From: an uncultured Gammaproteobacteria bacterium
GTDB lineage: Bacteria; Pseudomonadota; Gammaproteobacteria; UBA9214
Length of the DNA: 64,000 nucleotides
Reading direction: 5' to 3'
NCBI GenBank assembly: GCA_963748215.1
Contig: CAVVHS010000007.1
Span: 32,001 to 96,000, forward strand
Shown here: one piece after another, positions 234 through 43,244 of the stretch
How the letters are laid out: each line of letters begins with the position of its first letter
How positions within the stretch are numbered: the first letter of the stretch is position 1
Made by a program: the position numbers and the translations under genes
The notes under the pieces: model-generated
What the model was told of the DNA's origin: nothing
The model's input: only the letters and a program-made list of their open reading frames with translations
The model's database searches: none

Positions 234-2237
234 CAGTTGTGTGCTTCCTGTGTCTTGCGGGCTGCCCGGGCGGGCTGCACGGCCTGCTGCCTGAACGGGA
301 GTCGGTAGCGCCGGTCGAGGGCGGCGAACAGGCCACCAATGGCGATCATCAGGCCGCCGAGCCAGATCCAGCGCACGTAGGGCTTGTAGTAGAGACGCAG
401 GCTCCAGTCGCCACCACTACCCAGGCCTTCACCCAGCGATACGTAGATGTCGCGCATCAGGCCGGCGTTGATGCCGGCCTCGGTCATCGGCTTGGTCTGC
501 ACTGTGTAGGTGCGTTTTTCGGGCGTGAGTGTTGTCACTTCCTTGCCTTCACGGGAGACCGCGATGCTGCCCTGGTCGGCCCGGTAGTTCGGGCCCTGCA
601 CGGTACGCACGCCATCGAAGCGGAAGGTGTAGCCGGCCATGTCGATGGACTGGCCCGGCGACATACGGACATCCTGCTCGACATCGAACTGGGTGACGAA
701 GGTGACACCGATAATGAACACGGCGACGCCTAGGTGGGCGAGAACCATGCCGAAATAACTGCCGTTGCCGCGCGCCATGGGATTTTTCAGCAAGGCCTGC
801 AGGCTGGCGCGGCTGCGGTAGCGCTGGCGCAGGCTGAGCACCAGCGACGAGACCAGCCAGGTCGAGAGCATGACCGCCATGCCGGCCCAGGCCGAGAAAT
901 CGTGCAGGATCGGCAGCGCCACCAGCAGGCCGGCGGCAACGCTGACCAGTATCGCCACGCGGAAGGTGCGCAGCAGCTCGGCAGGGGTCGTGGTGTTTCC
1001 AGCGCGTCAGCGGACCCAGTCCCATCAGGAAGATCATGAGCGGCGTGAAGATCGTGAACATGGTGGTGAACCAGGGAAAGCCGACCGAGATCTTGCCCCA
1101 GCCGAAGGCGTCGTAGATGAGCGGGGCGAGGGTGCCGAGCAGGATGAAGGCCGTGATCACCACCAGCAGCAGGTTGTTGCCCAGCAGCATGGTTTCCCGC
1201 GACAGCATCGAGAAGCGTCCACCGCTGGTGACGTCCGGCGCACGCCAGGCATACAGGGCGAGCGAACCGCCGATGACGATGCACAGGAACACCAGAATGA
1301 ACAGGCCGCGCGCCGGGTCGGCGGCGAATGAGTGCACCGAGGTCAGCACGCCGGAGCGGACCAGGAAGGTGCCCAGCAGACTCAGCGAAAAGGCCAGCAG
1401 TGACAGCAGTACGGTCCAGCGCTTGAAGGCGCCGCGTTTTTCGGTCACCGCCAGCGAGTGGATCAGCGCGGTGGCGGCCAGCCAGGGCATGAAGGAGGCG
1501 TTCTCGACCGGGTCCCAGAACCACCAGCCGCCCCAGCCGAGTTCGTAGTAGGCCCACCAGCTGCCGAGCGTGATACCGATGGTCAGGAACACCCAGGCGA
1601 CGGTGGTCCAGGGCCGCGACCAGCGCGCCCAGGTGGCGTCCAGCTTGCCGCCGATCAGTGCGGCGATGGCGAAACTGAAGGCGACCGACATGCCGACGTA
1701 GCCCATGTACAGCATGGGCGGATGGATGGCCAGGCCAAAGTCCTGCAGCAGCGGATTGAGATCGCCGCCCTCGAGCGGCACCGGGAACACACGCTCGAAC
1801 GGATTGGAGGTAAACAGCAGGAAGGACAGGAAGCCGATGCTGATCATGCCCATGACGGACAGCACGCGTGCCAGCACCTCGGCGGGCAGGTTGCGCGACA
1901 GCGAGGCAACCGCGACCGTCCAGCCGCAGAGTATCAATGCCCACAGCAGCAGCGAGCCCTCGTGCGCGCCCCACACGGCGGAGACCTTGTACACCGTCGG
2001 CAGCAGGCTGTTGCCGTGCTGTGCGACATAGGCAACCGAGAAATCGTTAACCAGGAAGGCGTTGACCAGGCAGGCGAAGGCGATGGCGGTGAACGTGAAC
2101 TGGCCCCAGGCGGCCGGTTTCGCCATGGCGACCCAGCGCGGCGTGTTGGTCAGGGTGCCGACCATGGGGAAGACGGCCAGTATCAGGGACAGGCACAGTG
2201 CCAGGATAAGTGCGAAATGGCCGAGTTCTGGGATCAT
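233..2237 (-). CDS. ccmF: Cytochrome c heme lyase CcmF (one frameshift at ~984-987)
   Basis: [10 protein letters not shown] start, [30 protein letters not shown] (WWD) motifs in ORF 549..2705; C-terminus in ORF 233..958; removing one base of the GGGG run at 984-987 joins them. Confidence 0.93.
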
Positions 2238-2705
2238 GGTGTCACCGTCCTCTGCGGCTGCAGCCTTACCGCCGCCTTCCTCGTGCGCGGTCTTCAGCGC
2301 ATCGGCGACCTCGGGCGGCATGTAGTTCTCGTCGTGCTTGGCCAGCACCTCGTCGGCGACGAACAGCCGTCCGCGCCGCAGGCGGCCGTGCGCCACGATG
2401 CCCTGGCCCTCGCGGAACAGGTCGGGCAGGATGCCGGTGTATTGCACGGTGATGGTTTCGGCGTTGTCGGTGATGTCGAAGTTGACGGTCAGTCCGTCGG
2501 ACTGGCGCTTCACGCTGCCGGTGGTGACCAGGCCGCCGACGCGGATCAGGTGATCGGCCGGCGCCTCGCCCGCGGCCACCTTGCTGGGCGTGTAGAAGAA
2601 CATCAGGTTTTCATTGAAGGCCTTGAGGGCGAAGCCGGCGGCGACGCCGACGCCGGCGACCATCAGGCCGATGAGCAACAGGCGTTGTTTGCGCTTGGGT
2701 GTCAT
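2238..2705 (-). CDS. ccmE: Heme chaperone CcmE (reads in frame into ccmF, no stop)
   Basis: N-terminal [33 protein letters not shown] heme-binding motif. Confidence 0.93.
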
Positions 2706-5521: not shown

Positions 5522-6898
5522 ATGGACATACATACCAAGCCGTTACCGTTCGAGCTGCAATCGCTGGTCGAGACGCATGCCAAGCCGTTTGTTGTGGTTG
5601 ATTCCGGGTACCGGATACTCGCTGTGAACTCTGCGTATGAAAAGACCTTCGGCATTGCGGCCGCAGACGCTGTTGGCAAATTCTGCCACCAGGTCAGTCA
5701 CAGCAGCGCGGTACCCTGTAGCGAGATCGGTGAGGATTGTCCCCATGCCAGCCTGTACAACAATCGCACGCCGACGTCCTGCCTGCATAACCACTTCGAT
5801 ATCAATAATCGTGCGTGCCAGGTCCGGGTATCCGCCTTTCCCCTGCGCGGCAGCGACGGGGAACTCTACATGGGTGAGTTGGTCGAGGAGCTCAACCCGC
5901 CGGCCGATCGGCGCATGAATGGCAAGCGCATGGTCGGAAAAAGCCGCCCGTTCCTCGCCTGTATCGAACAACTGAAAGTGGCGGCGGCGACCGATGCGCC
6001 GGTGCTGGTGCAGGGCGAGACCGGGACCGGCAAGGAACTGGCGGCCAGACATATACATCTCCACTCCTCGCGCAGAGAACAGCCGTTTCTGACCGTGGAC
6101 TGCACCGTGCTTACGGACACATTGTTCGAGGCGGAGGTGTTCGGCCATGCGCGTGGTGCCTTCACCGGCAGTGTGGGCGAACGCATCGGGCTGTTCGAGC
6201 AGGCCAATGGCGGCACGCTGTTCCTGGACGAGGTCGGCGAGTTGCCGATGTCGCAACAGGCCAAGCTGCTGCGTGCGCTGGAATCCGGACAATTTCGACG
6301 CGTCGGCGGCAGGCACCAGCGTAAAAGTGATGTGCGCATCATCTGCGCGACCAACCGGCATTTGTGGGATGGCGTGAAGGCCAGCCAGTTTCGCGAGGAT
6401 CTGTATTACAGGATTGCATGCATGGCAATCCGTATGCCGCCGCTGCGGGAACGGCTGAACGATATTGATGTCCTCGTGGCAAGCCTGCTGGAGCGGATCA
6501 GCGAGATCATGAAGCGGCATTTCATAGTCGAACCCGAGGCGATTCAGGGGCTGAAGCAACACGATTATCCGGGCAACATACGTGAATTGCGCAATGTCCT
6601 GTTTGTCGCAGCGTCGCGCAGTACCAGGAATGTGATCACCACTGATACGGTAGCCGCGGTGCTCGAAGAACAGCGGCGGGATCGACAGCACGAGCTGCCC
6701 GATACCAGCGGCCCGTCTCGGGCTGCAGGGCATGCGCGGCCCGGCAAGAAAATGACGCCAACACTGAAGGATGTCGAGGCGCAGCATATCGCCGAGCTGT
6801 TGCAGAAGCACAATCACAGCCGCAAGCTGGTCGCCGTGGCGCTGGGTGTCAGCGAGCGCACCCTGTACCGGAAGCTGAAACGTTATGCGCTGAACTGA
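5522..6898 (+). CDS. PAS-domain sigma-54-dependent transcriptional activator (Fis-type HTH)
   Basis: N-terminal PAS with Cys/His (CHQVSH...C...CPH), GETGTGKE, GAFTGS, LFLDEVGE, PGNIREL, C-terminal LGVSERTLYRKLK. Confidence 0.93.
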   Translation: MDIHTKPLPFELQSLVETHAKPFVVVDSGYRILAVNSAYEKTFGIAAADAVGKFCHQVSHSSAVPCSEIGEDCPHASLYNNRTPTSCLHNHFDINNRACQVRVSAFPLRGSDGELYMGELVEELNPPADRRMNGKRMVGKSRPFLACIEQLKVAAATDAPVLVQGETGTGKELAARHIHLHSSRREQPFLTVDCTVLTDTLFEAEVFGHARGAFTGSVGERIGLFEQANGGTLFLDEVGELPMSQQAKLLRALESGQFRRVGGRHQRKSDVRIICATNRHLWDGVKASQFREDLYYRIACMAIRMPPLRERLNDIDVLVASLLERISEIMKRHFIVEPEAIQGLKQHDYPGNIRELRNVLFVAASRSTRNVITTDTVAAVLEEQRRDRQHELPDTSGPSRAAGHARPGKKMTPTLKDVEAQHIAELLQKHNHSRKLVAVALGVSERTLYRKLKRYALN

Positions 6899-6953
6899 CA
6901 GCAATGACGGTGCCGGGCTGTCAGTATTGTCTAACAAGCCTGTTTCCTGTTGT

Positions 6954-7082
6954 GGCTCTTTCCCAAATCGAGTGAATAGATTACCGTTGTACGGCCGAAT
7001 TCATTCGGCCAACAACCTTGCCATCAGAAGGAATGCGTCTCGTCTAAATTGATGTGTTACCCACTCAATCAGGGGAAGATCC
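6954..7082 (-). mobile_element. Miniature inverted-repeat element, family A, internally deleted copy
   Basis: Reverse-complement matches both ends of the 8811-9190 and 16666-17055 elements, joined at TTGGCCGAATGAATTCGGCC. Confidence 0.8.
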
Positions 7083-7087
7083 CTTGT

Positions 7088-7453
7088 GCCGTATTCTGGA
7101 TGCATACCATCACGGCCGAGGCAAACCCGGTCTAATGACGTGTGCCTGAACTGCCACAGTGACGAATCCGACGACGTGTTCACCCCCAGGGATGAATGGC
7201 CCGGTCACACCATGAAAGGTGTCGTGTCACGCCAGACCATGGACAAGTTGCAGATTGCGCTGCCGGGCAAGGTGTTCAGGACCGGAACTCGCTCAGCACC
7301 AGGTGCCGCAGTTGCCATGGCCACGAGAGGAGCCATGTCCAGTGCAGCGGCCCGAATGGCCGGGAGAGGAAGGACTGCCTGATCGAGGGCCGCGTTGCCG
7401 GGAGTGTCCGGGTCAGTGTGTCGACGTAACTGATCGGCAGCATCTGCGGCTGA
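7088..7453 (+). pseudogene. Decayed C-terminal fragment of a paralog of the 1761-aa multiheme cytochrome
   Basis: Across frameshifts reads AVFWMHTITAEANP/NDVCLNCHSDESDD...VSRQTMD...GKVF/...CRSCH...LIEGRVA...ICG*, colinear with AVSWMHTYTDEADP..DVCRNCHGDESDE...VSRVAMD...GQVF...CTTCH...LIQGRVS...GCGW. Confidence 0.85.
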
Positions 7454-7675
7454 TAAGGTCTATGCCCAGCAGTGCAAGGGGTAGGGATTTACTCCGCTTT
7501 ACGCAGCGAGACGAATGCATCGCTGCGACGTCGACGTTCACTGCCAGTATCCTTCTCAACAAGCGTGGCGGTACTTCCGTGGGTGTTGCGGGTCCTGTCC
7601 CTTGCCTTTTTTCACCAGTGACTTCGCGATGCGACGTGGGTGCGCTTTACCCGGCGTGCTGACGACGGGCCTGTG

Positions 7676-8128
7676 TCAGTTGCCGTTGCCAATCGCCGCG
7701 CGCAGTTCTCCGATATTATCCTGCAGGCGCTGCATGGCGAGCTGGTTGCGCTGCTGTACCAGCTGCGGAACGATGGTGATCACCTTCTGTCCGGTCGGCG
7801 TGATGTAGAAGGCATTCATGACCTTCAGTTCATCCTCGCTGAAGGTCTGCATGTACATTCGCGCCAGGTCATCCCTGATCGCATCCCAGCCGATATATTT
7901 TTCCAGAAAGGCCATCAGGACATCCTGCTTGGACGCAAGTCCCGGGTCCTGACGAACCTGAAGCTGCGCGACGGACGCTACGCTTTCGCTGATCTTCTGT
8001 TCCATGTGCGTCAGCTGGAACAGGGTTTCGACCGCCTGGCGGTGGCTGTCGGGTTCAGCCGCCTGCAGGGCCGGGCATGTCAGGGCGGCGGCCAGCAGCA
8101 GGCCGAGGTAGAAAGGGTGTGGTTTCAT
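7676..8128 (-). CDS. Exported DUF2059-like protein
   Basis: Signal peptide MKPHPFYLGLLLAAAL..., YMQTFSEDELKVMNAFYITPTGQK motif; start overlaps the upstream TlpA stop. Confidence 0.75.
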   Translation of the reverse strand: MKPHPFYLGLLLAAALTCPALQAAEPDSHRQAVETLFQLTHMEQKISESVASVAQLQVRQDPGLASKQDVLMAFLEKYIGWDAIRDDLARMYMQTFSEDELKVMNAFYITPTGQKVITIVPQLVQQRNQLAMQRLQDNIGELRAAIGNGN

Positions 8129-8652
8129 TGTGTCGTCTCCTGTTCCTGTAACAGTTGCCTGATGAGGGACAGCGTTTCCTCGCTGTCCCATTGGGGTGTG
8201 CTCTGTACCCAATAGCGAATGCGTCCGTTGCCATCGAGCAGAAAGCTGGTCGGCAGCACCGTCATGTCCCATGCCTCGAAAAGTTGTTTGCGTGTGTCCA
8301 GCAGTACGGGCAGATCGAAATCGACCAGCTTGACGAATTTCCACACTCGGAATTCTTGTTCGCCGACGTTGACCGCCAGGATTTCGAAGGGCTGGCTGGG
8401 AAAAGTCTCCTTGAGGCGTTCCAGCTCCGGCAATTCCTGTATGCAGGGCGGGCACCAGCTGGCCCAGAAATTCACCAGTACCACCTTGCCGTGGTAATCC
8501 TCCAGGGAATGCATCTGGTCTTGCAGGTCGGGCAGGCTAAACGCGGTGTCAGCATGAGTGTTCTCATGCGGGACGAGCGCGGGCCCGGCCAGCGCCTGTG
8601 TCAGTGCCATCCAGAACAGGGTTATCGCCAGTGGTATCGATGCAAGTTTCAT
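8125..8652 (-). CDS. TlpA/ResA-family thioredoxin
   Basis: Signal peptide, VLVNFWASWCPPCIQELP, ILAVNVGE, LPTSFLLD. Confidence 0.9.
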   Translation of the reverse strand: MKLASIPLAITLFWMALTQALAGPALVPHENTHADTAFSLPDLQDQMHSLEDYHGKVVLVNFWASWCPPCIQELPELERLKETFPSQPFEILAVNVGEQEFRVWKFVKLVDFDLPVLLDTRKQLFEAWDMTVLPTSFLLDGNGRIRYWVQSTPQWDSEETLSLIRQLLQEQETTQ

Positions 8653-8708
8653 ACGCGTGTTTTTATTAAATATGCAGGGAAATTATACACCCATGCGCGA
8701 TGGATAAA

Positions 8709-8804
8709 GGCCACGAAAACACACGGAATAACGAATGCAGTGAGGCATGAGACGTGAGTCGTGAAAGATAATGGCCACGGAATCCACGGAAGGACACGGA
8801 AAAA
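8709..8804 (+). repeat. CCACGGAA-type short repeats, same motif as in the 34-35 kb array
   Basis: GGCCACGAAAACACACGGAA...ATGGCCACGGAATCCACGGAAGGACACGGAAAAA and a TGAGACGTGAG motif. Confidence 0.65.
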
Positions 8805-8810
8805 TAAAAT

Positions 8811-9190
8811 GGATCTTCCCCTGATTGAGTGGGTTAATTACTCAATTTAGACGTGACGCATTGCTTCTGATGGCAAGGTTATTGGCCGAATGAATTCGGC
8901 CAGCGTTGTTTCTGTAGGGTCGAATTCATTCGACCAGCGGTGTTTCATTCGAGCAGGTATGCTGCGGTGATATCCGTAAACAAAAGAATGACGACCGCGG
9001 GTAACCGAGGTGATGCATATAGACTTGATGGTGCAGGGAATGACGCTCACCTGCGCAATGCGTCACAGGACAGGGCGACCTCCTTGTCTACAATGACAGC
9101 AGGCTGTTGGTCGAATACCCGATAAAGCGCCGGGCACAAGTGAATTCGGCCGTACAACGGTAATCTAGCCACTCGATTTGGAGAAGAGCC
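8811..9190 (+). mobile_element. Miniature inverted-repeat element, family A, with REP palindromes and RAYT remnant
   Basis: Ends GGATCTTCCCCTGATTGAGTGG and CCACTCGATTTGGAGAAGAGCC; highly similar to 16666-17055. Confidence 0.8.
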
Positions 9191-9287
9191 AGATAAAGAC
9201 ACCGGCCAGGGCGGCAGATGCGTGTTCAGCGGTGCATGATCAAGACCCGGCAAAACCCTTCCGCAAGGCCGGGAATGCCACACCTGG

Positions 9288-9324
9288 CAGACATTCGTGT
9301 CAGTCATGCTGACAGTAATGGCTG
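9288..9324. promoter_or_regulatory. Tandem candidate enhancer (UAS) sites
   Basis: CAGACA-TTCG-TGTCAG (9288-9303) and CTGACA-GTAA-TGGCTG (9309-9324), 21 bp apart, upstream of the -24/-12 promoter. Confidence 0.55.
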
Positions 9325-9398
9325 ACCCGCAGACAGGCGATGCTGCCCGTATTCAGACTGCATTCGGCACATCAACACCTTAACAGAACACGGGGCAA

Positions 9399-9414
9399 TG
9401 GCATGAAAGTTGCT
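9399..9414 (+). promoter_or_regulatory. Sigma-54 (-24/-12) promoter
   Basis: TGGCAT-GAAAG-TTGCT with exact GG-N10-GC spacing, upstream of the 1761-aa gene. Confidence 0.8.
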
Positions 9415-9691
9415 GTCCTTTTAAGCAGAGACAGCGAAACGAACAAGCACAGTTCCTCGCGGGTTTGTTTCATATAAGCACAGACAGGTGAAGGCAGAGG
9501 CGCAGCCTTTGGGGGATTTGAGTTGATAACCCGGCCAGTTACCACAAGGCAGGGGACAACTTGAAAACAGAGACTGCCGCATTATCGTACTGCACCGAAA
9601 CAATATTTATTACCGTTGCAACAGCAGCACGGCTTGCCGGGCGCTGTTTGGCTTAGTCATCAGAAAAATATTTGTCAGGAGGGGCAGGATA

Positions 9692-12600
9692 ATGACAACA
9701 ATACTCAAGGACTCGCGGCAATCGCGGTGGTCTGTATTTTTCATTACGGCCATGCTGGTCGTGATCGCGGCACTTGCGGCAGCACCAACCGCGCACGCCT
9801 CCAGCGGCTATCTGAATACCTGGAGCGGGCTATACCCCGGCTCCGCCTCGGACAACAATGCCAGCTGTCAACTCTGTCACGGTAGCAGTACCCAGAATAT
9901 AAATCCTTATGGCTTTGCCCTGGCCCAGTGCAACGGTGCCACCGGCAACATCACCCAGCGCATACAGGCGGTAGAAGGTCAGGATTCTGACGGACAGGGT
10001 GACTCGAACCAGACCGAGATCAACGCCAACGCGCAACCTGGATGGACTACGGGCGCGATGCAGGTTTGGACCCGCAACGGTTGCGCCCCGGCTGGCACCA
10101 ACACCTACCCCGGTAGTGGCGATGTGGATCCGGCAGCTGCCAACCTGCCACCGATCGCCGATGCCAACGGCCCATACACAGGCACTACAGGCCAGCCGGT
10201 GACTTTCGACGGTACCGGCTCATCCGATTCGGACGGTACGATCGCCAGCTATGCCTGGACCTTCGGTGACGGCGGTAACGGTACCGGCGTGAGTCCGACA
10301 CACACCTATACCAGTGCGGGCACCTTCACCGTGACCCTGACGGTAACCGATAACGCGGGTGCGACCGACTCGGCTACCTCAACGGCGACGATTGCTGCTG
10401 CTCCGCAGGCTCCGGTTGCTGATGCCAATGGCCCCTACAACGGCACTGCCGGTCAGCCGGTGACCTTCGACGGATCCGGTTCCAGCGATGCTGACGGCAC
10501 CATTGTGTCCTTTGCCTGGACCTTCGGTGACGGTACTACCGGTACTGGCGTATCCCCGACCAATACCTATGCCGCCGCCGGCACCTTCAACGTGACCCTG
10601 ACGGTGACGGATAACGACGGACTGACTGACACGGCGACCTCAACAGCGACTATTGTTGCTGCCCCGGTTGATCCGATCGCAGATCCCAACGGTCCGTACA
10701 ACGGCACCGAGGGTGTTGCCCTGACGCTGAATGGCAGCGCCTCGTTTGATCCTGACGGCGGTAACATTACCGCTTACGACTGGAACTTCGGTGACGGTAA
10801 TACCGGCACGGGTGCTACACCAACGCATACCTACGCTGCTCCTGGTCTTTACACAGTAAGTCTGGTTGTTGTGGATGATGAAGGTGCGCAGAGTGCGCCG
10901 GCGACGACGACTGCCGACATTGCCCAGGCACAGGTTGATGTGTGTGACTTCAGTGTAATTCCGACCTCGCTGGCTTTTGGTGGCGTGAATGTCGGCAGCA
11001 GCTCGACGTTGTCAACAACGGTGACCAACAACGGTACCGCGGCCTGCGCCATCACCGCCAGCGTGACATCCGGGACAGGTGAGTTCACCCTGGCCTCAGG
11101 ATCGACGGTCACGGTCGCAGCCAATGGGGGAACGGCCAGTGTCTCCGTCGACTACACGCCGGTGAACACTGGTGCTGACAGCGGAACCCTCAACCTGTCG
11201 AGCAATGATCTCAACAATGTGCAGGCTGTTGGTGTTTCGCTGTCGGGTACCGGTGTCGACAATGTTCCTCCGCCCGTCGATTGTGAGGGTCTCAATATCA
11301 CCCGGGCAGATTACAGTAATCGTCGGAACCGGCTCAGCGTCGACGGTAACGGCGGCGAGAGAAATGGCGGTGATTTTGTGCTGACCAATGCCTACGATTC
11401 AACACAGATACTGGCGACGGGATCACGGGACAGGGACAGGAGCTTCAGATTCCGCGTCAGCAACCCCAATCCAGTGCCGTGTGTTGTACGGGTCGAACAG
11501 CCTGAGACAGGCTTGTGCGCGATTGCCGATGTGGCCAACGCGCCTGAAGACTGTGCCCCTAAGGCCCCCCCACCACCCCCCGGCGGAGGTGATGGAATCA
11601 CTGCCCGTGGTGACACCTATGCCACCCCGGTTGGTAACACCCTCACGGTGTCGGCCTCACGCGTCTCCGGCGTGCTCTACAATGACTTCGGTGGCGTGCC
11701 GCCGCTGACAGCACAGCTGGTCAGCGGACCTACCGCCGGTAACCTGGATGCTTTCGGTGCAGACGGTTCATTTACCTATACCCCGGGCAGTGCCATGGTC
11801 GATAATCAGATCGACCAGTTCACCTACGTCGCGGTGGATGCAAACGGTGATGAATCGGCTCCGGCCACGGTCGTACTGCAGACCCTGTCCAAGCAGACCG
11901 ACTTCAAGATCCTGATGAACTACGAGCTGGGCATGCACTGCACCGGTTTCGAGTTTGCCTACTGCTGCGTACTGCCGCCGTACAACTCGATCATCGCGCA
12001 GGTTGTGAAACCGGCGCAGAACGACCCGGCTAATTCTGGCAACAACTTCGTCGATGGTTTCCCTCGCATGCTCGAGGGCGATCCAAACGTCGGTCTGGAC
12101 GGTTTGAACCGTGAGACCGTGGTGCGCGACTGGGATTACACCACCAGCTCGTTCAAGAAGTACCAGCTGCGCTACTATCACGACGCTCAGCCACGCCAGG
12201 AAGGCAATACCGGCAAGCCCAACACCAGCACGCTGATCAGTGCGGCGGAAGGTAACTCGCTGCAGTACTTCAATACGGTGTTCGATTCCGCAGCACCTGA
12301 CGGTGGTAATGCGCTGGTGTACGGTGAGTACAACGGCTTGCAGAACGTAATACAGGGTGACGGCAGTTTTGGCGGCCCCACCGACAACTATGCCAACGGT
12401 TGGCTGAACCACTTTTACATCTACGGCAACCTCGAAGGCCATGGTAATACAGGCCTTGAAGCCGATAAGGTCCGCCTGGGTGTCGCCGGACAGGTGGAAT
12501 ATCCACCGAATTCAGGCGCTGCGCTGCAGCCGCTGGGGCCAACCGGTAATGGTGCCTTTGAAAACGTGCTGACCTTCTCGGCCGACACCGGCACCGTGGT

Positions 12601-14977
12601 CTTTACCCAGGCCAAGGTGCTCGAAGACCTGCCGATCATGCTGACTTCGCCGCGCATCTGGGAGGCCCTGGGCCTGCCGCTGACGCCGTTCGAGGACACC
12701 ATCGGCTTCTTCGCTGATCCGGGTGCAGTGGACGAAGACGCGGTCCGGCCCTATGTGGCCATGAAGGCTTCCTTGCACGAGTATCCGTCGGGCAATGCGG
12801 TAACGGGCAGCAACGGCCAGCCGGTGATCGGTTTCGGTACCGCACCGATCGATATACCGAACTGCGAGCGTTGCCACTCGGCACCCTCTGTCGATCCGGT
12901 CACGGGCAATCCGAATGTCAACAGCCCGAACTGGAACAGGCCAGATGCTTTCTACCCGCATACCAACGGCACGGTTCCGTTCGGCACAGGACTGGAGGAG
13001 ATCACCAACCTGGAGATCAGCTTCTGGCAGGCCTACTACGATATCATCCCGGGCGTGGATTCGACCTGGTACTCAAGGCTGAAGGGCGCGGCGATCAATA
13101 TGCTGACCCTGCATGACCTGGACGTAGGCACCAGCTTCACCGCGAATTACGCCGGTGTGGATTGCGTCGATGTGAACAACTGTTCGCACACCAACGGACT
13201 GGCGGACCTGACCAATACCAGCGACATCCCGCAGAACACCCGCCTGGGTGGAGAATCGGTCATCTGCCAGCGCTGCCATGCTGATAACGTGATTGCCAAC
13301 GTCAAATCGGCCACCTTCGATGTGGACGGGCAGTTCCCCATCAAACCGATTTCGGAAGCCATTCACAATCAGCACCGCAATCAAAGTGAAGACGGCGTAA
13401 TCGTGTTCAACGACAGCCTCGGTCGCGACGGCGGCTGCCAGGGCTGTCACCCGGCCCACCGTTCGGACGGCGTGATGGATGACTATCCCATCACTCTGGG
13501 CGGCAACAACGCCAATGCCAGTGACGACAACCGCCTCAACCTGGGTGGCTGCTTCGTCGGACGTGATGTTCACTCCAACCCGATGAAGGACATCGATGGC
13601 GTCGAAACGCCGAGCCATCTGAATGCTGTGGGTACCTGGCTGGTTGATAATGTTGCCTTCGATCAGGGCGACGCACGCGGTATCTGGTGCACCAACTGTC
13701 ATACCCAGCTGGGTCAGGAAATGTGGCGCACCGAGGACTGCAACGACCTGATTCGCGGTGACTGCCTGGTCAATCCGCGTGCCGGGGCGACACTGGCAGA
13801 TGTTGCGGCCGCAGTCGGACTCACCGAGCAGCAAGCGATCGATTACCTCGACCCCAAGGTCGATGGCTTTGATCGCACCTCGGACCAGACCCACGCAATC
13901 TGGGCTCCAGCCTCAGTCACGTCGGATGCCAATGTAGCGACCATCGAGGTCGATGGCGGCGGTAATCCAGTGGTCACCTTTGACGCCGATGGCGACCCCA
14001 GTGTCAACATACTGAGCTTCTGCACCACAGATGACTGCGTGGCCCGGATCAATGCCAATCCAAGTGACCAGAGTCAGTGGCGCTACCCGGCCAACCCGTT
14101 CATCGATCCGGTGAACAACTCGGGCTTTCCGGTACCGTTCAGTGCGGCCACCGACGGCCGGGATCACTGGCTGGCCGCCGGCGAACCCCACTGTGCGGAC
14201 TGCCACCAGGCGCCATATGTTGAGCAAAGCGGTAATATCACAGCCTACCCGCCGTTCAACTACCCGGCCAAGGCCAGCCTGATGCGCTACACCCGTGGCC
14301 ACCAGGACATCAGCTGCCAGGGCTGTCACGAGTCGATACACGGTCTCTACCCGGTGACCCCGACGATTGACACCACCAGCTATGCACAGGCAGCGGCACT
14401 CAATAACGACGGTTCTCATGGTCCGCTGAAGTGCGCAAGCTGCCACACCTACGTGGATGGCGATGGCATTCCGAACTGGGTGGACAATCTGCGCTACAAC
14501 GATCCGACCACGCCGGGCAATGACAACCTGCCGGTTGCCGGTAATTTCGACCGGGCGGTCAGCTGGATGCACACCTACACGGACGAGGCCGATCCGACAC
14601 AGGACGTGTGCCGGAACTGCCATGGCGACGAGAGTGATGAGATGTCGGAGAACGATCAGGAGTACCTGGAGCACGCTATGGTTAACCGCGTATCGCGTGT
14701 GGCCATGGACAACGCCGAGCGCGCCGTCAACAACGGACAGGTGTTTGGCGAGACGGCCGGTTCCCAGCGTGTCCAGCTGTGCACCACCTGTCACGAATCC
14801 GGAGATCGTGACGGCGACCGGCGTCGACATAGAGGTGGTGATCGCCATGGCGGTGGCGGCAACCAGCTGCCGAATGTCAGCTGCAATACGACCTGGAGGA
14901 ATCACCTGATCCAGGGGCGTGTCTCCGAGTTGGTATGGGAAGATATATCCGCTCCGTTGGGTGGCTGCGGCTGGTAA
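9692..14977 (+). CDS. Giant secreted multiheme c-type cytochrome (10 CxxCH) with 3 PKD and further Ig-like domains
   Basis: Sec signal (AHA|S); CQLCH; three WxFGDG...TY...VTLTV PKD repeats; ASH-like and cadherin/Big_9-like (DGSFTYTP...DQFTY) domains; CERCH, CQRCH, CQGCH, CTNCH, CADCH, CQGCH, CASCH, CRNCH, CTTCH. Confidence 0.92.
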   Translation: MTTILKDSRQSRWSVFFITAMLVVIAALAAAPTAHASSGYLNTWSGLYPGSASDNNASCQLCHGSSTQNINPYGFALAQCNGATGNITQRIQAVEGQDSDGQGDSNQTEINANAQPGWTTGAMQVWTRNGCAPAGTNTYPGSGDVDPAAANLPPIADANGPYTGTTGQPVTFDGTGSSDSDGTIASYAWTFGDGGNGTGVSPTHTYTSAGTFTVTLTVTDNAGATDSATSTATIAAAPQAPVADANGPYNGTAGQPVTFDGSGSSDADGTIVSFAWTFGDGTTGTGVSPTNTYAAAGTFNVTLTVTDNDGLTDTATSTATIVAAPVDPIADPNGPYNGTEGVALTLNGSASFDPDGGNITAYDWNFGDGNTGTGATPTHTYAAPGLYTVSLVVVDDEGAQSAPATTTADIAQAQVDVCDFSVIPTSLAFGGVNVGSSSTLSTTVTNNGTAACAITASVTSGTGEFTLASGSTVTVAANGGTASVSVDYTPVNTGADSGTLNLSSNDLNNVQAVGVSLSGTGVDNVPPPVDCEGLNITRADYSNRRNRLSVDGNGGERNGGDFVLTNAYDSTQILATGSRDRDRSFRFRVSNPNPVPCVVRVEQPETGLCAIADVANAPEDCAPKAPPPPPGGGDGITARGDTYATPVGNTLTVSASRVSGVLYNDFGGVPPLTAQLVSGPTAGNLDAFGADGSFTYTPGSAMVDNQIDQFTYVAVDANGDESAPATVVLQTLSKQTDFKILMNYELGMHCTGFEFAYCCVLPPYNSIIAQVVKPAQNDPANSGNNFVDGFPRMLEGDPNVGLDGLNRETVVRDWDYTTSSFKKYQLRYYHDAQPRQEGNTGKPNTSTLISAAEGNSLQYFNTVFDSAAPDGGNALVYGEYNGLQNVIQGDGSFGGPTDNYANGWLNHFYIYGNLEGHGNTGLEADKVRLGVAGQVEYPPNSGAALQPLGPTGNGAFENVLTFSADTGTVVFTQAKVLEDLPIMLTSPRIWEALGLPLTPFEDTIGFFADPGAVDEDAVRPYVAMKASLHEYPSGNAVTGSNGQPVIGFGTAPIDIPNCERCHSAPSVDPVTGNPNVNSPNWNRPDAFYPHTNGTVPFGTGLEEITNLEISFWQAYYDIIPGVDSTWYSRLKGAAINMLTLHDLDVGTSFTANYAGVDCVDVNNCSHTNGLADLTNTSDIPQNTRLGGESVICQRCHADNVIANVKSATFDVDGQFPIKPISEAIHNQHRNQSEDGVIVFNDSLGRDGGCQGCHPAHRSDGVMDDYPITLGGNNANASDDNRLNLGGCFVGRDVHSNPMKDIDGVETPSHLNAVGTWLVDNVAFDQGDARGIWCTNCHTQLGQEMWRTEDCNDLIRGDCLVNPRAGATLADVAAAVGLTEQQAIDYLDPKVDGFDRTSDQTHAIWAPASVTSDANVATIEVDGGGNPVVTFDADGDPSVNILSFCTTDDCVARINANPSDQSQWRYPANPFIDPVNNSGFPVPFSAATDGRDHWLAAGEPHCADCHQAPYVEQSGNITAYPPFNYPAKASLMRYTRGHQDISCQGCHESIHGLYPVTPTIDTTSYAQAAALNNDGSHGPLKCASCHTYVDGDGIPNWVDNLRYNDPTTPGNDNLPVAGNFDRAVSWMHTYTDEADPTQDVCRNCHGDESDEMSENDQEYLEHAMVNRVSRVAMDNAERAVNNGQVFGETAGSQRVQLCTTCHESGDRDGDRRRHRGGDRHGGGGNQLPNVSCNTTWRNHLIQGRVSELVWEDISAPLGGCGW

Positions 14978-14986
14978 CCACGTATG

Positions 14987-15056
14987 ACCGCCCGCTCTGG
15001 ATGGAGCGGGCGGTTTCCATCGATGGAGGGGATATCTCTGTATCCCCTCCATTTTT
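14987..15056 (+). terminator. Two consecutive hairpins after the cytochrome gene
   Basis: ACCGCCCGCTC..GAGCGGGCGGTTT then ATGGAGGGGATA..TATCCCCTCCATTTTT. Confidence 0.7.
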
Positions 15057-15161
15057 AACGCTACATGAATCGCGGCGCCGAGCAGCTCATCGTCCTGTTG
15101 TTCCAGGCGGCGGGATAGCGTAGTTTTATCGGAAGACCTGTAAGTTCAGAGGATAATAAGC

Positions 15162-16643
15162 ATGAGATTCCTGTTTGCCTTCCTGATGATTTTCAATCTG
15201 CTGTTTGCGAATGTCTCAATGGCCGTGGCACGTGCCGGGGAATCGGCAAAGGCAGACACGGACAGTGACATCATTGCCCGGGTCGGTGATCAGGACATCA
15301 CCTTTAACCAGATCAATACCATGCTCAACAGTTCCGCTGTGATCGGAGTATCGGTGCCGGCGCTGGGCACGCCACAGCGCGACACCGCCAGGATTGTAGT
15401 GCTGGACAAGGTGGTCAGCGCGAACCTGCTCTACCTCGATGCCATTCGCCAGGGCCTGGACAAGGATCCGGCCTATCAACGGGATATGCAGAACTTTACC
15501 GAGGGCATGCTGGGTGGGCAGTATTACCGTCAAATCATGGCGGGTGATATCCTCGTGTCGGAGACGGAGATCCAGGAATTTTTCTCCAAGACCATGAAGT
15601 CGGGCACCGAAATGAGCGACGATTTGCATACCCAGATCGAAGCAGCCCTGCGCAAGCGCAAGCTGCACGAACGCGTCGCAGCGAAGCGCGCAGAACTGCG
15701 CCAGGGTATCGAGGTAGACATCTACCCGGACAACCTGGCTGCGGCCGGGGAGGAGGCGCCGGCGGATGATGTGCCGGTGGCGAAGTACGGCGATCAGGTT
15801 ATCAGCTGGGGTGATGTCAATGACACCCTGGTAGCAGCGGGCAGGGGAGCAACCGACCTGGATCCCACCGCGATGGAAGTCGATGCGCAGCTCGCGGCGC
15901 TGGAGATGGTGATCGACAAGCGCATCATTGCAGCCAAGGCTCGTGAAGCCGGGCTGGAGCAGGACGCCATCTACCAGTCACGCCTGAATGAATACCAGAA
16001 GACCCGGCTGGTGAATATGCACCGGGCAAACCTGGCTCGGGATATGGAACCATCCGATGAGCAGCTGAAGTCTTACTACGACGCGAATCGCAACACGATC
16101 ATGCAGGTGGAGATGCGCAAGACCCAGGAAGTTCTGCTCAAGACGCGCGAGGAAGCCGAAGCCCTGAAGGCCAGGATCGAGTCAGGGGAGCTGACCATGT
16201 ACCAGGCCGCCGCTGACTATTCCATTGCCCCTGGGGCCAAACAGCAACTGGGTGAGGTGGGCTGGGTGGCCGCAGGGCGTGCCCAGACGGCGCTGGACGA
16301 GGTGATCTTCAAACTGGGCCCCGGCGAGCTCGGTGGCCCGGTCGAGTCCACACAGGGCTGGCACCTGGTCAAGGTGCTTGATATCAGCGATGCGAAATTC
16401 GACATCTTCGAGGATCAGGAAACGCAGAAGCTCACCCGGCGCCGTTACATCCACGACCAGCTGGATGCCTATGTCATGGACCTGCGCAAGAACGACTTCA
16501 CGGTGGAAGTTTATGAAGACAATCTGGTCCGGCTGGCGCAGAAAGAGGCGGACATGATCGCCAGACTGACCGAGCAGGCGTCCAAGCCCGGTTCCAGGAC
16601 CGAGCAGCGCGTGAAGGAACTCAAGGATCTGATTGGCGAGTAA
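15162..16643 (+). CDS. Periplasmic PpiC/parvulin-type PPIase with SurA-like chaperone region
   Basis: Signal peptide, duplicated helical segments (IARVGDQDIT / VAKYGDQVIS; GLDKD / GLEQD), parvulin motifs GEVGWV, GELGGPVESTQGWHLVKV. Confidence 0.85.
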   Translation: MRFLFAFLMIFNLLFANVSMAVARAGESAKADTDSDIIARVGDQDITFNQINTMLNSSAVIGVSVPALGTPQRDTARIVVLDKVVSANLLYLDAIRQGLDKDPAYQRDMQNFTEGMLGGQYYRQIMAGDILVSETEIQEFFSKTMKSGTEMSDDLHTQIEAALRKRKLHERVAAKRAELRQGIEVDIYPDNLAAAGEEAPADDVPVAKYGDQVISWGDVNDTLVAAGRGATDLDPTAMEVDAQLAALEMVIDKRIIAAKAREAGLEQDAIYQSRLNEYQKTRLVNMHRANLARDMEPSDEQLKSYYDANRNTIMQVEMRKTQEVLLKTREEAEALKARIESGELTMYQAAADYSIAPGAKQQLGEVGWVAAGRAQTALDEVIFKLGPGELGGPVESTQGWHLVKVLDISDAKFDIFEDQETQKLTRRRYIHDQLDAYVMDLRKNDFTVEVYEDNLVRLAQKEADMIARLTEQASKPGSRTEQRVKELKDLIGE

Positions 16644-16665
16644 CGCGGAGCGCGAAACTTTTTCA

Positions 16666-17055
16666 GGATCTTCCCCGGATTGAGTGGGTAACACATCAAT
16701 TCAGACGAGACGCATTCCTTCTGATGGCAGGGTTGTTGGCCGAATGAATTCGGCCCTACTGTAGGGTCGAATTCATACGACCAGCGTTGTTTCTCAACCA
16801 GACCGTAGGGTCGAATTCATTCGACCAATGGTGTTTCATCCGAGCAGGCGTGCTGCGGTGATATCCGTAAACAAAAGAATGATGACCGCGGGTAACCGTG
16901 GTGATGCAATCGACTTGATGGTGCAGGGAGTGACGCTCACCTGCGCAATGCGTCACAGGACAGGGTGACCTCCTTGTTTCCTATGGCAACAGGCTGTTGG
17001 CCGAATGAATTCGGCCCTGCAACGGTAATCGACCCACTCGATTTGGGGAAGAGCC
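16666..17055 (+). mobile_element. Miniature inverted-repeat element, family A (most complete copy)
   Basis: Imperfect ~24-bp terminal IRs; flanks CTTTTTCA / CTTTTTAA (7/8 direct repeat); internal GTAG-type REP hairpins. Confidence 0.82.
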
Positions 17056-17316
17056 CTTTTTAATCACTATCCATCCTGAAAGGTGGCCCGCAGCCTGTGT
17101 CGGGCAATTATCGCCCAGGATGTGGGCAGGGCGGTGTACGTACTGCATAACCTGCGCTGGCGCGATGACTCTTGTCCTGCGCAGGTGTGGTAGCACATTC
17201 CATCAAACATCCACTTTCATAGCCCCCCGTTGCTCCCGGGTTTGTACCTTGCCAATGGCTAGCCCATGCGGCCGATTCGGATATACACTCGATCGGGAGA
17301 CCGGAGTCCCCAGCTG

Positions 17317-17856
17317 ATGAAAATTCAGGCAACTGTACCTGTGTCGTTGTTCCTGCTCTGCCTGTGCTTGCCTGTGCAGGCCGGTGAACTGGAGCAGTAT
17401 CCCGACTTCGGGTCGACGCCCCCGCTGCTGCTGAGGGACCTCGGTGACAGGGAACATGCGCTGACCGATTACCGGGGCCAGGTGGTGCTGGTCAACTTCT
17501 GGGCCAGCTGGTGTTCGCCCTGCCTGGTCGAGATGCCGTCCATGCAGCGACTCCAGCGGTCCCTGGCCGGCAGGCCGTTCGCCATCCTGGCTGTCAATGT
17601 CAGGGAATCCCGGGAGAAGGCCTGGCGCGTCAGGAAGCGGCTGGGCGTGGACTTCACCACGCTGCTCGACAGCAACGGTGTCGTCACGGGTGACTGGGAT
17701 GTGCAGGTTTACCCCACCAGTTTCCTGGTCGATCCGGAGGGCCGGATTCGCTACATCGCCTATGGCATGGTGCGCTGGGATGACGACCCGGCGCAGCAGG
17801 TGATCGAGCAGCTCATGCCAGACCGGGAAGCTGTGCAGGCCGCGAGTGTCCGGTAG
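17317..17856 (+). CDS. TlpA/ResA-family thioredoxin
   Basis: Signal peptide MKIQATVPVSLFLL..., VNFWASWCSPCLVEMP, YPTSFLVD. Confidence 0.9.
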   Translation: MKIQATVPVSLFLLCLCLPVQAGELEQYPDFGSTPPLLLRDLGDREHALTDYRGQVVLVNFWASWCSPCLVEMPSMQRLQRSLAGRPFAILAVNVRESREKAWRVRKRLGVDFTTLLDSNGVVTGDWDVQVYPTSFLVDPEGRIRYIAYGMVRWDDDPAQQVIEQLMPDREAVQAASVR

Positions 17857-17989
17857 TGTGCTGACCCGTGTGTACTTATTTTCATGCCTGGCAGGATACG
17901 CCGGCGTACCGTGCAGCGTCCCTGCTGTCCGGGATCAGTGTGCTGCGGGGTGTCCACCTGGCGCAGATGTGTAACCTGTCGCAGGCCGG

Positions 17990-18384
17990 GGTCCTTTCTC
18001 GATCGCCAGGCCGCCTGTATCCAGGCGGAGAAGGTCCCCTCGATGTGATAGAGGCCCCCGATGCCGGCATCCAGCAGGATCGGTTCGGCCTGGCGGGTGC
18101 GCGAGCCCTTAATGCAGTAGATCGGCACGCCATGGTCGTGGTCGGGGTCATCGAGGTGCTGCTCCAGCTCGTCGAGCGGAATGTTGATGGCGCCGGGTAT
18201 ATTTTCGATCCTGAATTCGTACGCTTTACGCAGGTCGACCACGAGGGGCGCAGTTCCGGTCTCCGGCAGTGTCTGGACCCGCTGAGGGGTGGCCCGGCGA
18301 CATGAAATCCGCGGCCGGCCGGGCCAGGGGAAGCAGGACCAGCAGTCCTGCCGCGGCAAGTGATCGAAAACCGGAAAGCGACAT
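17990..18384 (-). pseudogene. Exported rhodanese-domain protein, frameshifted
   Basis: Signal peptide from ATG 18384 (after GAGGGAAA) is out of frame with the core VVDLRKAYEF...IPGAINIPLDEL...YCIKGSR...HIEGTFSAW; 3' end approximate. Decay or sequencing error. Confidence 0.6.
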
Positions 18385-19712: not shown

Positions 19713-20021
19713 ATGAAAAAGATAATCCAGATTGCCGTGATCGGCGCAACCCTGCTGGTCGCGAATTCCGCGGTACAGGCAGCCGACGCCGAAGGCATTT
19801 ACAACACCAAGTGCATGGCCTGTCATGCGACCGGTGCGGCCAATGCGCCGAAGCTCGGCGACAAGGAAGCCTGGGCGCCGCGTATCGCCATGGGTAACGA
19901 TGCCCTGCTGGCCAGTGCCATCAAGGGCAAGAACGCCATGCCGCCGAAGGGCACCTGCATGGAGTGTTCTGACGACGACCTCGCCGCCGTCATCGACTAC
20001 ATGATTTCGAAGAGCCAGTAA
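19713..20021 (+). CDS. Cytochrome c5
   Basis: Signal peptide, CMACH, APKLGDKEAWAPR, AMPPKGTCMECSDDD. Confidence 0.93.
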   Translation: MKKIIQIAVIGATLLVANSAVQAADAEGIYNTKCMACHATGAANAPKLGDKEAWAPRIAMGNDALLASAIKGKNAMPPKGTCMECSDDDLAAVIDYMISKSQ

Positions 20022-42597: not shown

Positions 42598-43203
42598 TCA
42601 GCACCTGCCCGGTTGCCGCCAGCGGCGCGCAATCCAGTAATCGAGGCTGAACCAGCGGCCGGCGCCGGTGAAAAACAGGGCCAGCAGCATGATGAAATAG
42701 GTTGCGGCGAATTCGATGCCGTTTTTCAGAATGGTGATACTGCCTGCCGAGGTCAGCCACTCGTAGTTGCCGTGTTCGCGCAGGATTTCGCGGGCCCGTT
42801 CCTTGCGGATGGTCCCTTCATCGATCAGGTCGCTGCGCCATTCCCAGGGGACCTGCAGCTCGGTTTCCGGCAGTGCATGCCAGCCGTTGTCCCAGTGCGC
42901 GGTGGTGGCGGCGACGACCATGGTGAACATCATGGGCAGGGCGAACCAGCGCACGGCCAGCCCGGCGAGCAGGGCGATGCCGCCCAGTAACTCGGTCAGT
43001 GCGGCGACGTAGACCATGATCTCCGGGGCCGGTATGCCCAGCGAGGCGAAGTAAGGACCGAGGTGCTCGGCGTGCGCCAGCTTGTTGGATCCGGCCAGGA
43101 TGAAGATCGGCGCGAGGTAGATACGCAGCGCCACCGGGGCGAGAAAGTCGAGTCCGCGCGTGCGATCCAGCAGGTCCTGCAGGCAGTTCAGAATTCCGGT
43201 CAT
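42598..43203 (-). CDS. DoxX-family membrane protein (HvfX-like)
   Basis: LRIYLAPIF, HWDNGW, ILKNGIEFAATY, GAGRWFSLD. Confidence 0.85.
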   Translation of the reverse strand: MTGILNCLQDLLDRTRGLDFLAPVALRIYLAPIFILAGSNKLAHAEHLGPYFASLGIPAPEIMVYVAALTELLGGIALLAGLAVRWFALPMMFTMVVAATTAHWDNGWHALPETELQVPWEWRSDLIDEGTIRKERAREILREHGNYEWLTSAGSITILKNGIEFAATYFIMLLALFFTGAGRWFSLDYWIARRWRQPGRC

Positions 43204-43244
43204 GGCTCACTCTCTTGTGTGCTGCTGCTGCCGGGATCTGGCGT

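What the first reader, a model, noticed from the sequence alone, without database searches (positions are those of the whole stretch)
5522..17856. Candidate undescribed system: sigma-54-controlled giant adhesin-like decaheme cytochrome with its own foldase and thioredoxins
Seen: a 1761-aa Sec-exported protein with one N-terminal heme domain, a stalk of 3 PKD and about 3 other Ig-like domains, a 7-heme core and a 2-heme tail. It has a -24/-12 promoter, is followed by a SurA/PpiC foldase, is flanked by two TlpA genes and a DUF2059 gene, and lies next to a PAS-AAA+ activator, ccmA-G and, nearby, sox. Established: PKD/cadherin-like repeats are typical of surface and extracellular proteins; Ccm attaches heme at CxxCH. 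Inference: a cell-surface or secreted redox protein for contact with solid substrates (elemental sulfur, metal sulfides/oxides) or partner cells. No MtrB-type porin, lipobox or TM anchor is visible, so it is not an ordinary porin-cytochrome conduit. I do not recognise it as a characterised family.
Basis: partly seen in the sequence, partly recalled or inferred. Interest (0 to 1): 0.88.

Follow-up and report, generated by a model that had tools for sequence, protein, structure and literature searches.

The report
Stalked ten-heme cytochrome of unnamed family
This gene encodes a giant exported ten-heme protein from a large, unstudied cytochrome family that travels with its own chaperone and thioredoxin genes in sulfur-oxidising bacteria, and it looks more like a sulfur-handling redox enzyme mounted on an adhesin-like stalk than a plain electron wire.

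Summary
The 1761-aa ORF has 10 CxxCH motifs, an Ig/PKD stalk, no anchor, a sigma-54 site and the listed neighbours. The conserved unit, however, is a seven-heme core: an Ig-like domain with an invariant Gly-Met-His(-Cys) motif plus 7 hemes. The stalk, the N-terminal heme and the two-heme tail are add-ons.

PpiC follows directly in 51 of 55 related loci. A seven-heme lipoprotein form keeps the same cytochrome-PpiC-TlpA operon. A compact relative has at least 2,799 homologues. No family model, solved-structure match or paper was found.

In a class-wide sample, 9 of 9 carriers outside the host family have DsrA (background 67 of 239), and 0 of 9 have an MtrB porin. The non-heme domain is among the most conserved parts, and there are eight candidate axial ligands for seven hemes. 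Both point to a catalytic site.

Best reading (0.45): an exported heme-c oxidoreductase for sulfane-sulfur compounds, here probably surface-displayed. Location and substrate are untested. A decayed second copy lies at 7082-7450. The scan met the nine-heme family twice before on other DNA.

The parts
5522..6898 (+). PAS-AAA+-Fis sigma-54 activator, the likely regulator
   Evidence: Pfam; a homologue lies within the locus in 13 of 28 long loci
7082..7450 (+). decayed, 5'-truncated, frameshifted remnant of the two-heme tail of a second copy of the cytochrome gene
   Evidence: A1 profile E=4e-10; translations; up to 50% identity to family tails, in-frame stops
7676..8128 (-). DUF2059 exported protein, accessory
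   Evidence: Pfam; 7 of 28 long loci
8125..8652 (-). TlpA-type thioredoxin 1 (WCxxC)
9399..9413 (+). sigma-54 -24/-12 site, 293 nt before the start codon
   Evidence: a like site near the start in 28 of 49 loci against 3 of 49 on the opposite strand
9692..14977 (+). 1761-aa exported ten-heme cytochrome c
9692..9799 (+). Sec-type signal peptide (about residues 1-36), no lipobox
   Evidence: sequence; hydrophobicity scan
9800..10135 (+). optional N-terminal monoheme module
   Evidence: 7 of 54 loci; weak NF041762 hit below its cut-off; no PDB hit
10142..11896 (+). variable stalk: 3 PKD, ASH/choice-of-anchor-D-like Ig, unnamed beta domain, Big_9
11900..12859 (+). heme-free Ig-like domain of the core, carrying G747-M748-H749-C750 and Y-C758-C759 (11930-11968); candidate active site
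   Evidence: most conserved 25-residue block, 19 of 25 invariant; Ig/Fn3-like fold Z 4-6
12860..14587 (+). seven-heme domain of the core
14588..14974 (+). two tandem copies of a roughly 55-aa monoheme module, ending CGW
   Evidence: the repeat-1 profile hits 46 of 47 repeat-2 sequences; four copies in P0249
15162..16643 (+). SurA/PpiC-type chaperone, the near-obligate partner gene
   Evidence: 51 of 55 loci; 9 of 10 seven-heme loci
17266..17856 (+). TlpA-type thioredoxin 2
   Evidence: a TlpA in 16 of 28 long loci and 7 of 10 seven-heme loci
17760..18359 (-). rhodanese-domain gene, apparently frameshifted at its 5' end; accessory
   Evidence: Pfam; 9 of 28 long loci; also beside both other paralogues of this genome
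18428..18940 (-). 170-aa lipoprotein of no known family; accessory
   Evidence: no Pfam/NCBIfam hit; 9 of 28 long loci

Best explanation
The protein is a member of an unnamed family of exported multiheme c redox ENZYMES. Shown: Sec export signal, heme motifs, Ccm genes next door, and a conserved operon with a chaperone and TlpA under a sigma-54 site. Inferred: (1) Ccm attaches the hemes, the SurA/PpiC-like protein holds the large apo-protein, and TlpA keeps its cysteines reduced. (2) The heme-free Ig-like domain puts its invariant Met-His(-Cys) loop and the Cys-Cys pair against one heme, forming a site that makes or breaks S-S bonds in a sulfane-sulfur substrate (polysulfide, S0 chains, thiosulfate or tetrathionate; direction unknown). 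(3) The other hemes, lengthened here by three monoheme modules, carry electrons to or from partner cytochromes. (4) In this copy the Ig/PKD stalk spaces the enzyme away from the cell after type II secretion; other members are tethered as lipoproteins or have no stalk.
For: Enzyme-like traits. (a) 57-85% identity across Gammaproteobacteria, Nitrospirota and Desulfobacterota records, whereas EET cytochromes diverge fast (PMC12977616, passages). (b) 79 of 224 invariant columns lie in the heme-free domain. (c) About 128 residues per heme. (d) GMH is invariant in all 14 sequences spanning the superfamily; G, H and C are invariant in 120 compact relatives. (e) There are eight candidate distal ligands for seven hemes (H749, 1141, 1225, 1228, 1294, 1537, 1550, 1627); H1294 is Met in 117 of 118 compact relatives, as expected of a true axial ligand. 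Sulfur link. DsrA in 9 of 9 carriers from 8 families against 67 of 239 (p=1.7e-5); rhodanese beside all three paralogues of this genome. Operon. PpiC 51 of 55 and 9 of 10, TlpA 7 of 10. Precedents: a TlpA-type protein helps mature sulfite reductase SirA (PMC6976685, passages); MccSep builds a polysulfide-reducing site between an Ig-like and a heme domain (bioRxiv 2025.11.18.688581, passages). Surface display. Relatives carry SLH, dockerin, DUF4214, cadherin and VCBS domains. The genome has two GspD secretins. Paralogue 2 borders an island with a second T2SS and shares a 95-aa module with 9 other ORFs, 8 of them on the same stretch of contig C6.
Against: No activity, location or ligand was measured, and the structure tool gave no coordinates, so contact between the GMH loop and a heme is inferred. 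The extra ligand could serve a heme and leave all hemes bis-ligated. C750 may simply form a disulfide with C1287: both are lost together in 7 sequences, which may be one or two lineages. Only 9 of 76 DsrA genomes outside the host family carry it, and 13 of 15 family members without it keep dsrA, so it is accessory. The compact relatives occur in Planctomycetota, Chloroflexota and Acidobacteria records whose sulfur metabolism I did not test. The DsrA link could reflect habitat or kinship. The invariance of NYELGMH in A1 is partly built in, because it was one of the six search patterns.
Confidence: 0.45

Rival explanations
1. A non-catalytic extracellular electron-transfer terminal (the role of MtrC/OmcA). 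It docks on the genome's MtrA/MtrB pair and exchanges electrons with Fe/Mn minerals, metal sulfides or partner cells through the stalk.
For: The genome has MtrB and a DmsE-type decaheme but no MtrC. In the host family MtrB is in 20 of 23 carriers against 5 of 15 non-carriers (p=0.0013), while nosZ shows no link (4 of 23 against 4 of 15). 11 of 20 other nine-heme carriers have MtrB over the cut-off, against 13 of 251 class-wide. An operon of large anchorless multiheme cytochromes with a PPIase is described for SEEP-SRB1 (PMC5539420, passages).
Against: 0 of 9 seven-heme carriers and 0 of 4 Thiodiazotropha genomes have MtrB. This genome's MtrAB sits in a tetrathionate-reductase/YeeE operon. No recurrent porin cluster appeared in the 73 loci. 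Conservation and heme density are unlike those of wires.
Confidence: 0.2
2. The same enzyme core, but always periplasmic (free, or on the inner face of the outer membrane). The Ig stalk is a spacer or scaffold, for example at periplasmic sulfur globules.
For: 16 of 54 loci have no stalk. The seven-heme form is mostly a short lipoprotein (lipobox found in 7 of 9 class-sample loci scanned). The window copy has no anchor or sorting tail, and no secretion gene lies in its own locus.
Against: Stalks of up to about 900 residues built from domains typical of secreted proteins. A paralogue shares a module with proteins encoded around a T2SS cluster. Relatives carry SLH domains.
Confidence: 0.2
3. An enzyme with a non-sulfur substrate (nitrite, NO, hydroxylamine or peroxide), or a copper-heme enzyme in which Met-His binds Cu, as in MccA.
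For: Sigma-54/PAS control fits low-oxygen respiration. A cd1 nitrite reductase lies next to L023 and a nirK-like gene near paralogue 3 (by eye). Cu-type ATPases lie beside 3 of 10 seven-heme loci. The Cu-binding CrdA fold scores Z 5.3.
Against: None of these neighbours recurs. There is no nosZ link. One of the ATPases is a FixI type, and the Z-score is at background level for Ig folds. The DsrA link is 9 of 9.
Confidence: 0.15

Closest known systems
MccSep / ExtKL polysulfide reductase (bioRxiv 2025.11.18.688581; passages read)
   Same: Exported multiheme c protein joining a heme domain to an Ig-like beta-sandwich; adjacent Cys-Cys; found in sulfur cyclers.
   Different: 5 hemes against 7-10; the domain order is reversed; no Sec here; no sequence match in NCBIfam or PDB searches. 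Works-like analogy only.
MccA / SirA octaheme sulfite reductase (PMC6976685; passages read)
   Same: Multiheme enzyme with dedicated maturation genes, including a TlpA-family thioredoxin (SirH); a PPIase gene in the cluster is recalled, not read.
   Different: No CX15CH motif, no dedicated heme lyase, no NrfD-type partner; no sequence or fold match.
MtrC / OmcA / MtrF outer-membrane decahemes
   Same: Ten hemes plus beta-sandwich domains; weak PF22113 hit; MtrC appears at Z 4.9 (rmsd 4.9, 128 residues, rank 25) for the compact relative.
   Different: Heme spacing 1+7+2 rather than 5+5; no lipobox; not next to mtrAB; TIGR03507 gives only E=0.003 on the tail alone.
SEEP-SRB1 / Oet cytochrome operon (PMC5539420, PMC10553843; passages read)
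   Same: Large anchorless multiheme cytochromes with a co-encoded PPIase; an adhesin domain is fused to one cytochrome (OetF).
   Different: 16- and 26-heme proteins with a beta-propeller and a porin; none of these is in the loci here.
OmhA / SmhC / OcwA surface cytochromes of monoderm iron reducers (PMC7829351; passages read)
   Same: Secreted 7-11-heme proteins with surface-attachment modules.
   Different: No PDB sequence match at E<=1 for A1 or at E<=10 for A2.

Membership tests
MtrC/OmcA | lipoprotein signal | tested here: not met
   no Cys after the signal peptide
MtrC/OmcA | two pentaheme domains, TIGR03507 over cut-off | tested here: not met
   spacing 1+7+2; no own-genome match; tail 16 bits against a cut-off of 209
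MtrC/OmcA | shared fold | tested here: inconclusive
   Z 4.9 among unrelated Ig folds; apo models
Porin-cytochrome conduits (Mtr/Mto/Pcc/Oet) | porin gene in the same cluster | tested here: not met
   no recurrent porin cluster in 73 loci; one OmpA-like barrel beside 1 of 10 seven-heme loci
MccA/SirA | CX15CH eighth heme site | tested here: not met
   only CxxCH motifs reported by the pattern scan
MccA/SirA, NrfA, HAO, OTR enzymes | sequence homology to the solved enzymes | tested here: not met
   no PDB hit; no NCBIfam hit over cut-off
MccSep/ExtKL | five N-terminal hemes, C-terminal Ig domain, Sec/Cys site | tested here: not met
   Ig domain first, seven hemes after it, open frame without TGA
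MccSep/TsdA/SoxA type | His/Cys-ligated active-site heme | not testable with these tools
   no coordinates returned; C750, C758, C759 and C1287 are candidates
Unnamed LGMH seven-heme superfamily (defined here) | Ig-like domain with GMH plus seven aligned CxxCH and conserved distal His | tested here: met
   profile-profile probability 99.9, E=7e-33; the nine-heme clade has 100 SH-aLRT in a quick tree
Parvulin PPIases (partner gene) | first catalytic His | tested here: not met
   Met, Glu or Ile in 54 of 54; catalytic positions recalled
T2SS-secreted surface proteins | secretion shown | not testable with these tools
   indirect only

The most novel reading that the evidence does not exclude
A secreted, stalk-mounted heme enzyme that touches solid sulfur or metal sulfide outside the cell and cleaves or forms S-S bonds at a new Met-His-Cys/heme site. 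It would be the missing step by which some Dsr-type sulfur oxidisers activate external S0, and the first functional handle on a superfamily of thousands of proteins.
Probability: 0.2. Interest if true: 0.88.

Novelty: new variant of a known kind. Interest (0 to 1): 0.64.

Why it matters
[quoted passage not shown] This family is exported, sulfur-linked, present in sediment RNA libraries and modular (lipid anchor, stalk or none). It has an invariant motif that can be mutated. A named, cultured species carries the seven-heme form (Thioalbus denitrificans, RCX33097.1), so the substrate question is directly testable. Lucinid clam symbionts carry the nine-heme form. Even if the substrate differs, a multiheme superfamily of thousands of proteins has no model or structure.

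Tried and rejected
PDB sequence searches with the core, A1, P0249, A2 and the N-terminal heme domain: nothing meaningful; the weak A2 hits to reaction-centre cytochromes lie outside the core.

Fold searches: no Foldseek match at E<=0.001; best VIA Z 4.6 (window core, pLDDT 59.6) and 6.0 (compact relative, pLDDT 78), both generic Ig/Fn3 sandwiches. This does not show that the fold is new, and the heme domain was not folded alone.

ESM Atlas: only automatically named clusters.

Complex prediction of a seven-heme core piece with its PpiC: no answer.

The roughly 400-bp repeats at 8811-9190 and 16666-17055 that bracket the cassette were rejected as part of the system: they are a dispersed element with 11 long hits genome-wide.

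sox and ccm adjacency: rejected as conserved linkage. MtrB as obligatory partner: rejected.

RNA runs: nine runs held only 5-7% of the sampled words. The four laid show contigs of relatives, mostly under 95% alike, over the core. They are contigs only, chosen with this stretch, so they give no expression level or ranking, and DNA carry-over is not excluded.

A phylum-wide search with the compact profile found 3 of 401 genomes, too few for neighbourhood statistics.

Ten literature searches listed no paper on this family. Subscription papers and supplements were not seen; the cluster tables of PMC11492766 (passages only) could hold compact members.
Full report
Observation. The ORF at 9692-14977 encodes 1761 aa with ten CxxCH motifs in a 1+7+2 pattern; shuffles give 0.022 on average. 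After a signal peptide come a monoheme module, three PKD domains, an ASH-type Ig domain, an unnamed beta domain and a Big_9 domain. There is no second hydrophobic stretch and no lipobox. The only strict sigma-54 site of the window lies 293 nt upstream. Two additions: a rhodanese gene at 17760-18359, and a decayed remnant of the 3' end of another family copy at 7082-7450, directly after the activator.

The family. A search with the core found 394 proteins at E<=1e-10 among 7997 candidates; of the best 120 nearly all have nine hemes after the NYELGMHC motif and end in CGW or a like triplet. Seventy-three genome loci came from uncultured Gammaproteobacteria, Thiogranum, Ca. Thiodiazotropha, Sulfuricaulis, Methylococcaceae, Nitrospirota and Desulfobacterales records. 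Cores are 57-85% identical. What precedes the core varies: of 54 loci with an intact start, 7 have the N-terminal heme, 3 have PKD, 24 have Big_9 and 16 have no stalk. The two-heme tail is a tandem of one roughly 55-aa monoheme module, found four times in an unrelated architecture. The window's genome has two more paralogues, each followed by PpiC and rhodanese and each with a sigma-54-like site. Source databases call the members hypothetical or name only the stalk.

The superfamily. The profile search (491 hits) revealed a seven-heme form of about 800 aa, mostly a lipoprotein, and a compact form of about 360 aa with at least 2,799 homologues among 8000 candidates. An alignment of 14 sequences spans the whole core, with GMH, seven CxxCH and five distal His invariant (profile match E=7e-33). 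A quick tree puts the nine-heme proteins in one clade (100 SH-aLRT) inside the seven-heme forms; the careful search did not finish. Compact members are fused to SLH, dockerin, DUF4214, PKD and cadherin domains. Models show an Ig-like sandwich followed by a loop-rich heme domain; no solved structure matched by sequence or fold (see Tried and rejected).

The operon. PpiC lies within 1 kb downstream on the same strand in 51 of 55 loci; 18 of 73 were dropped because the gene end or the downstream DNA was missing. In 28 loci of at least 21 kb: PpiC 28, TlpA 16, activator 13, rhodanese 9, small lipoprotein 9, DUF2059 7, ccm 6, soxB 1. A sigma-54-like site is near the start in 28 of 49 loci against 3 of 49 on the opposite strand (strict pattern 11 of 49). 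Ten seven-heme loci from nine other Gammaproteobacteria keep PpiC (9) and TlpA (7). In eight nine-heme loci a second LGMH gene follows PpiC; in three of them (L023, L061, L066) it was read out as the seven-heme form. The minimal unit is cytochrome-PpiC-TlpA. The parvulin domain lacks the first His in 54 of 54 (active-site positions recalled), which suggests a holding chaperone.

Enzyme or wire. The best conserved block is the heme-free motif at residues 737-761, and 79 of 224 invariant columns lie before the first core heme; the caveat is that this motif was among the search patterns. The core has 128 residues per heme. Eight residues qualify as distal ligands for seven hemes; one of them switches His to Met in 117 of 118 compact proteins, which leaves the GMH His as the likely surplus. 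C750, C758-C759 and a Cys between hemes 3 and 4 are present in 118 of 118 scored window-type proteins. The compact form keeps only C750 and the latter, and seven sequences lose all of them, so a structural disulfide is an alternative. EET cytochromes are reported to be poorly conserved (PMC12977616, passages). MccSep shows that an Ig domain and a heme domain can form an S-S-cleaving site (passages), and SirH shows a TlpA serving one multiheme enzyme (passages). These are analogies, not membership.

Which metabolism. In an even draw of 251 genomes of the class, 11 of 250 scored carry the family. Leaving out the host family and the unscored genome, DsrA is in 9 of 9 carriers (8 families) against 67 of 239, OTR in 3 of 9 against 16 of 239, and MtrB in 0 of 9 against 11 of 239. 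Kin and habitat are not controlled. The gene is accessory: 9 of 76 DsrA genomes carry it. Within the host family MtrB goes with it (20 of 23 against 5 of 15), but this weakens after size matching (10 of 13 against 4 of 11, p=0.095). Among 20 other nine-heme carriers 11 have MtrB, and the four Thiodiazotropha genomes have none. A link of the stalked nine-heme form to MtrAB therefore remains possible but is not general.

Location. Not shown. For the surface: the stalk domains, two GspD genes, and paralogue 2 at the edge of an island with a second T2SS, a PEP-CTERM-like protein and proteins sharing its 95-aa module. Against: stalkless members, and no anchor or secretion gene at this locus.

Literature and earlier notes. 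Ten searches listed no description of this family (calls named under Tried and rejected). Twelve papers were read as passages only; no supplements were opened. Two earlier scan notes describe the nine-heme family with its foldase on other genomes. They agree with my findings but are not independent support. The seven-heme and compact forms, the TlpA-containing minimal operon, the DsrA link and the candidate site were worked out here.

Verdict. A real and undescribed system, best read as an exported multiheme sulfur-redox enzyme with its own maturation genes (0.45), here in an elaborated, probably surface-displayed form. Rivals: electron-transfer terminal (0.2), periplasm-only enzyme (0.2), other substrate (0.15). 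Novelty: new variant of a known kind (multiheme c redox enzymes). Interest 0.64.

Noticed in passing
window 6953-7085, 8811-9190, 16666-17055: Copies of a dispersed palindromic element of about 390 bp, MITE-like; 11 hits of at least 250 bp genome-wide; one copy abuts the decayed cytochrome remnant.
   Followed up: partly
window 549-2705 (-): CcmE and a shortened CcmF read as one ORF, probably a frameshift artefact; the assembly shows other frameshifts (dsrA, mtrB, paralogue 3).
   Followed up: no
window 19713-20021 (+): Monoheme cytochrome c5-like gene, a possible electron partner; a like gene sits just upstream of the family gene in L069.
   Followed up: partly
G000:C6:703146-706070 (-): 974-aa lipoprotein of the compact form (9 CxxCH, PKD, choice-of-anchor D) followed by TlpA, downstream of paralogue 2.
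   Followed up: partly
G000:C6:718800-786000: Island of secreted proteins with PEP-CTERM/GlyGly-CTERM-like tails, a second T2SS, sigma-54 sites, a MauG-like diheme protein and a shared 95-aa TSP3/dockerin-like module.
   Followed up: partly
G000:C8:148884-156850 (+): 15-heme tetrathionate-reductase-family fusion, YeeE-type genes, a rhodanese-like gene, a DmsE-type decaheme and MtrB in one run; no MtrC in the genome.
   Followed up: partly
L044:5164-9374, L060:5209-9423, L040:2697-6111: In place of the PAS activator, a kinase and sigma-54 response regulator; in L044 and L060 preceded by a multiheme protein (5 CxxCH in L044), a possible heme-based sensor.
   Followed up: no
window 42598-44039 (-): HvfX and HvfC family RiPP maturation genes.
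   Followed up: no
G000:C5:88534-90501 (-): Five-CxxCH exported cytochrome with a GlyGly-CTERM-like tail, seen by eye.
   Followed up: no
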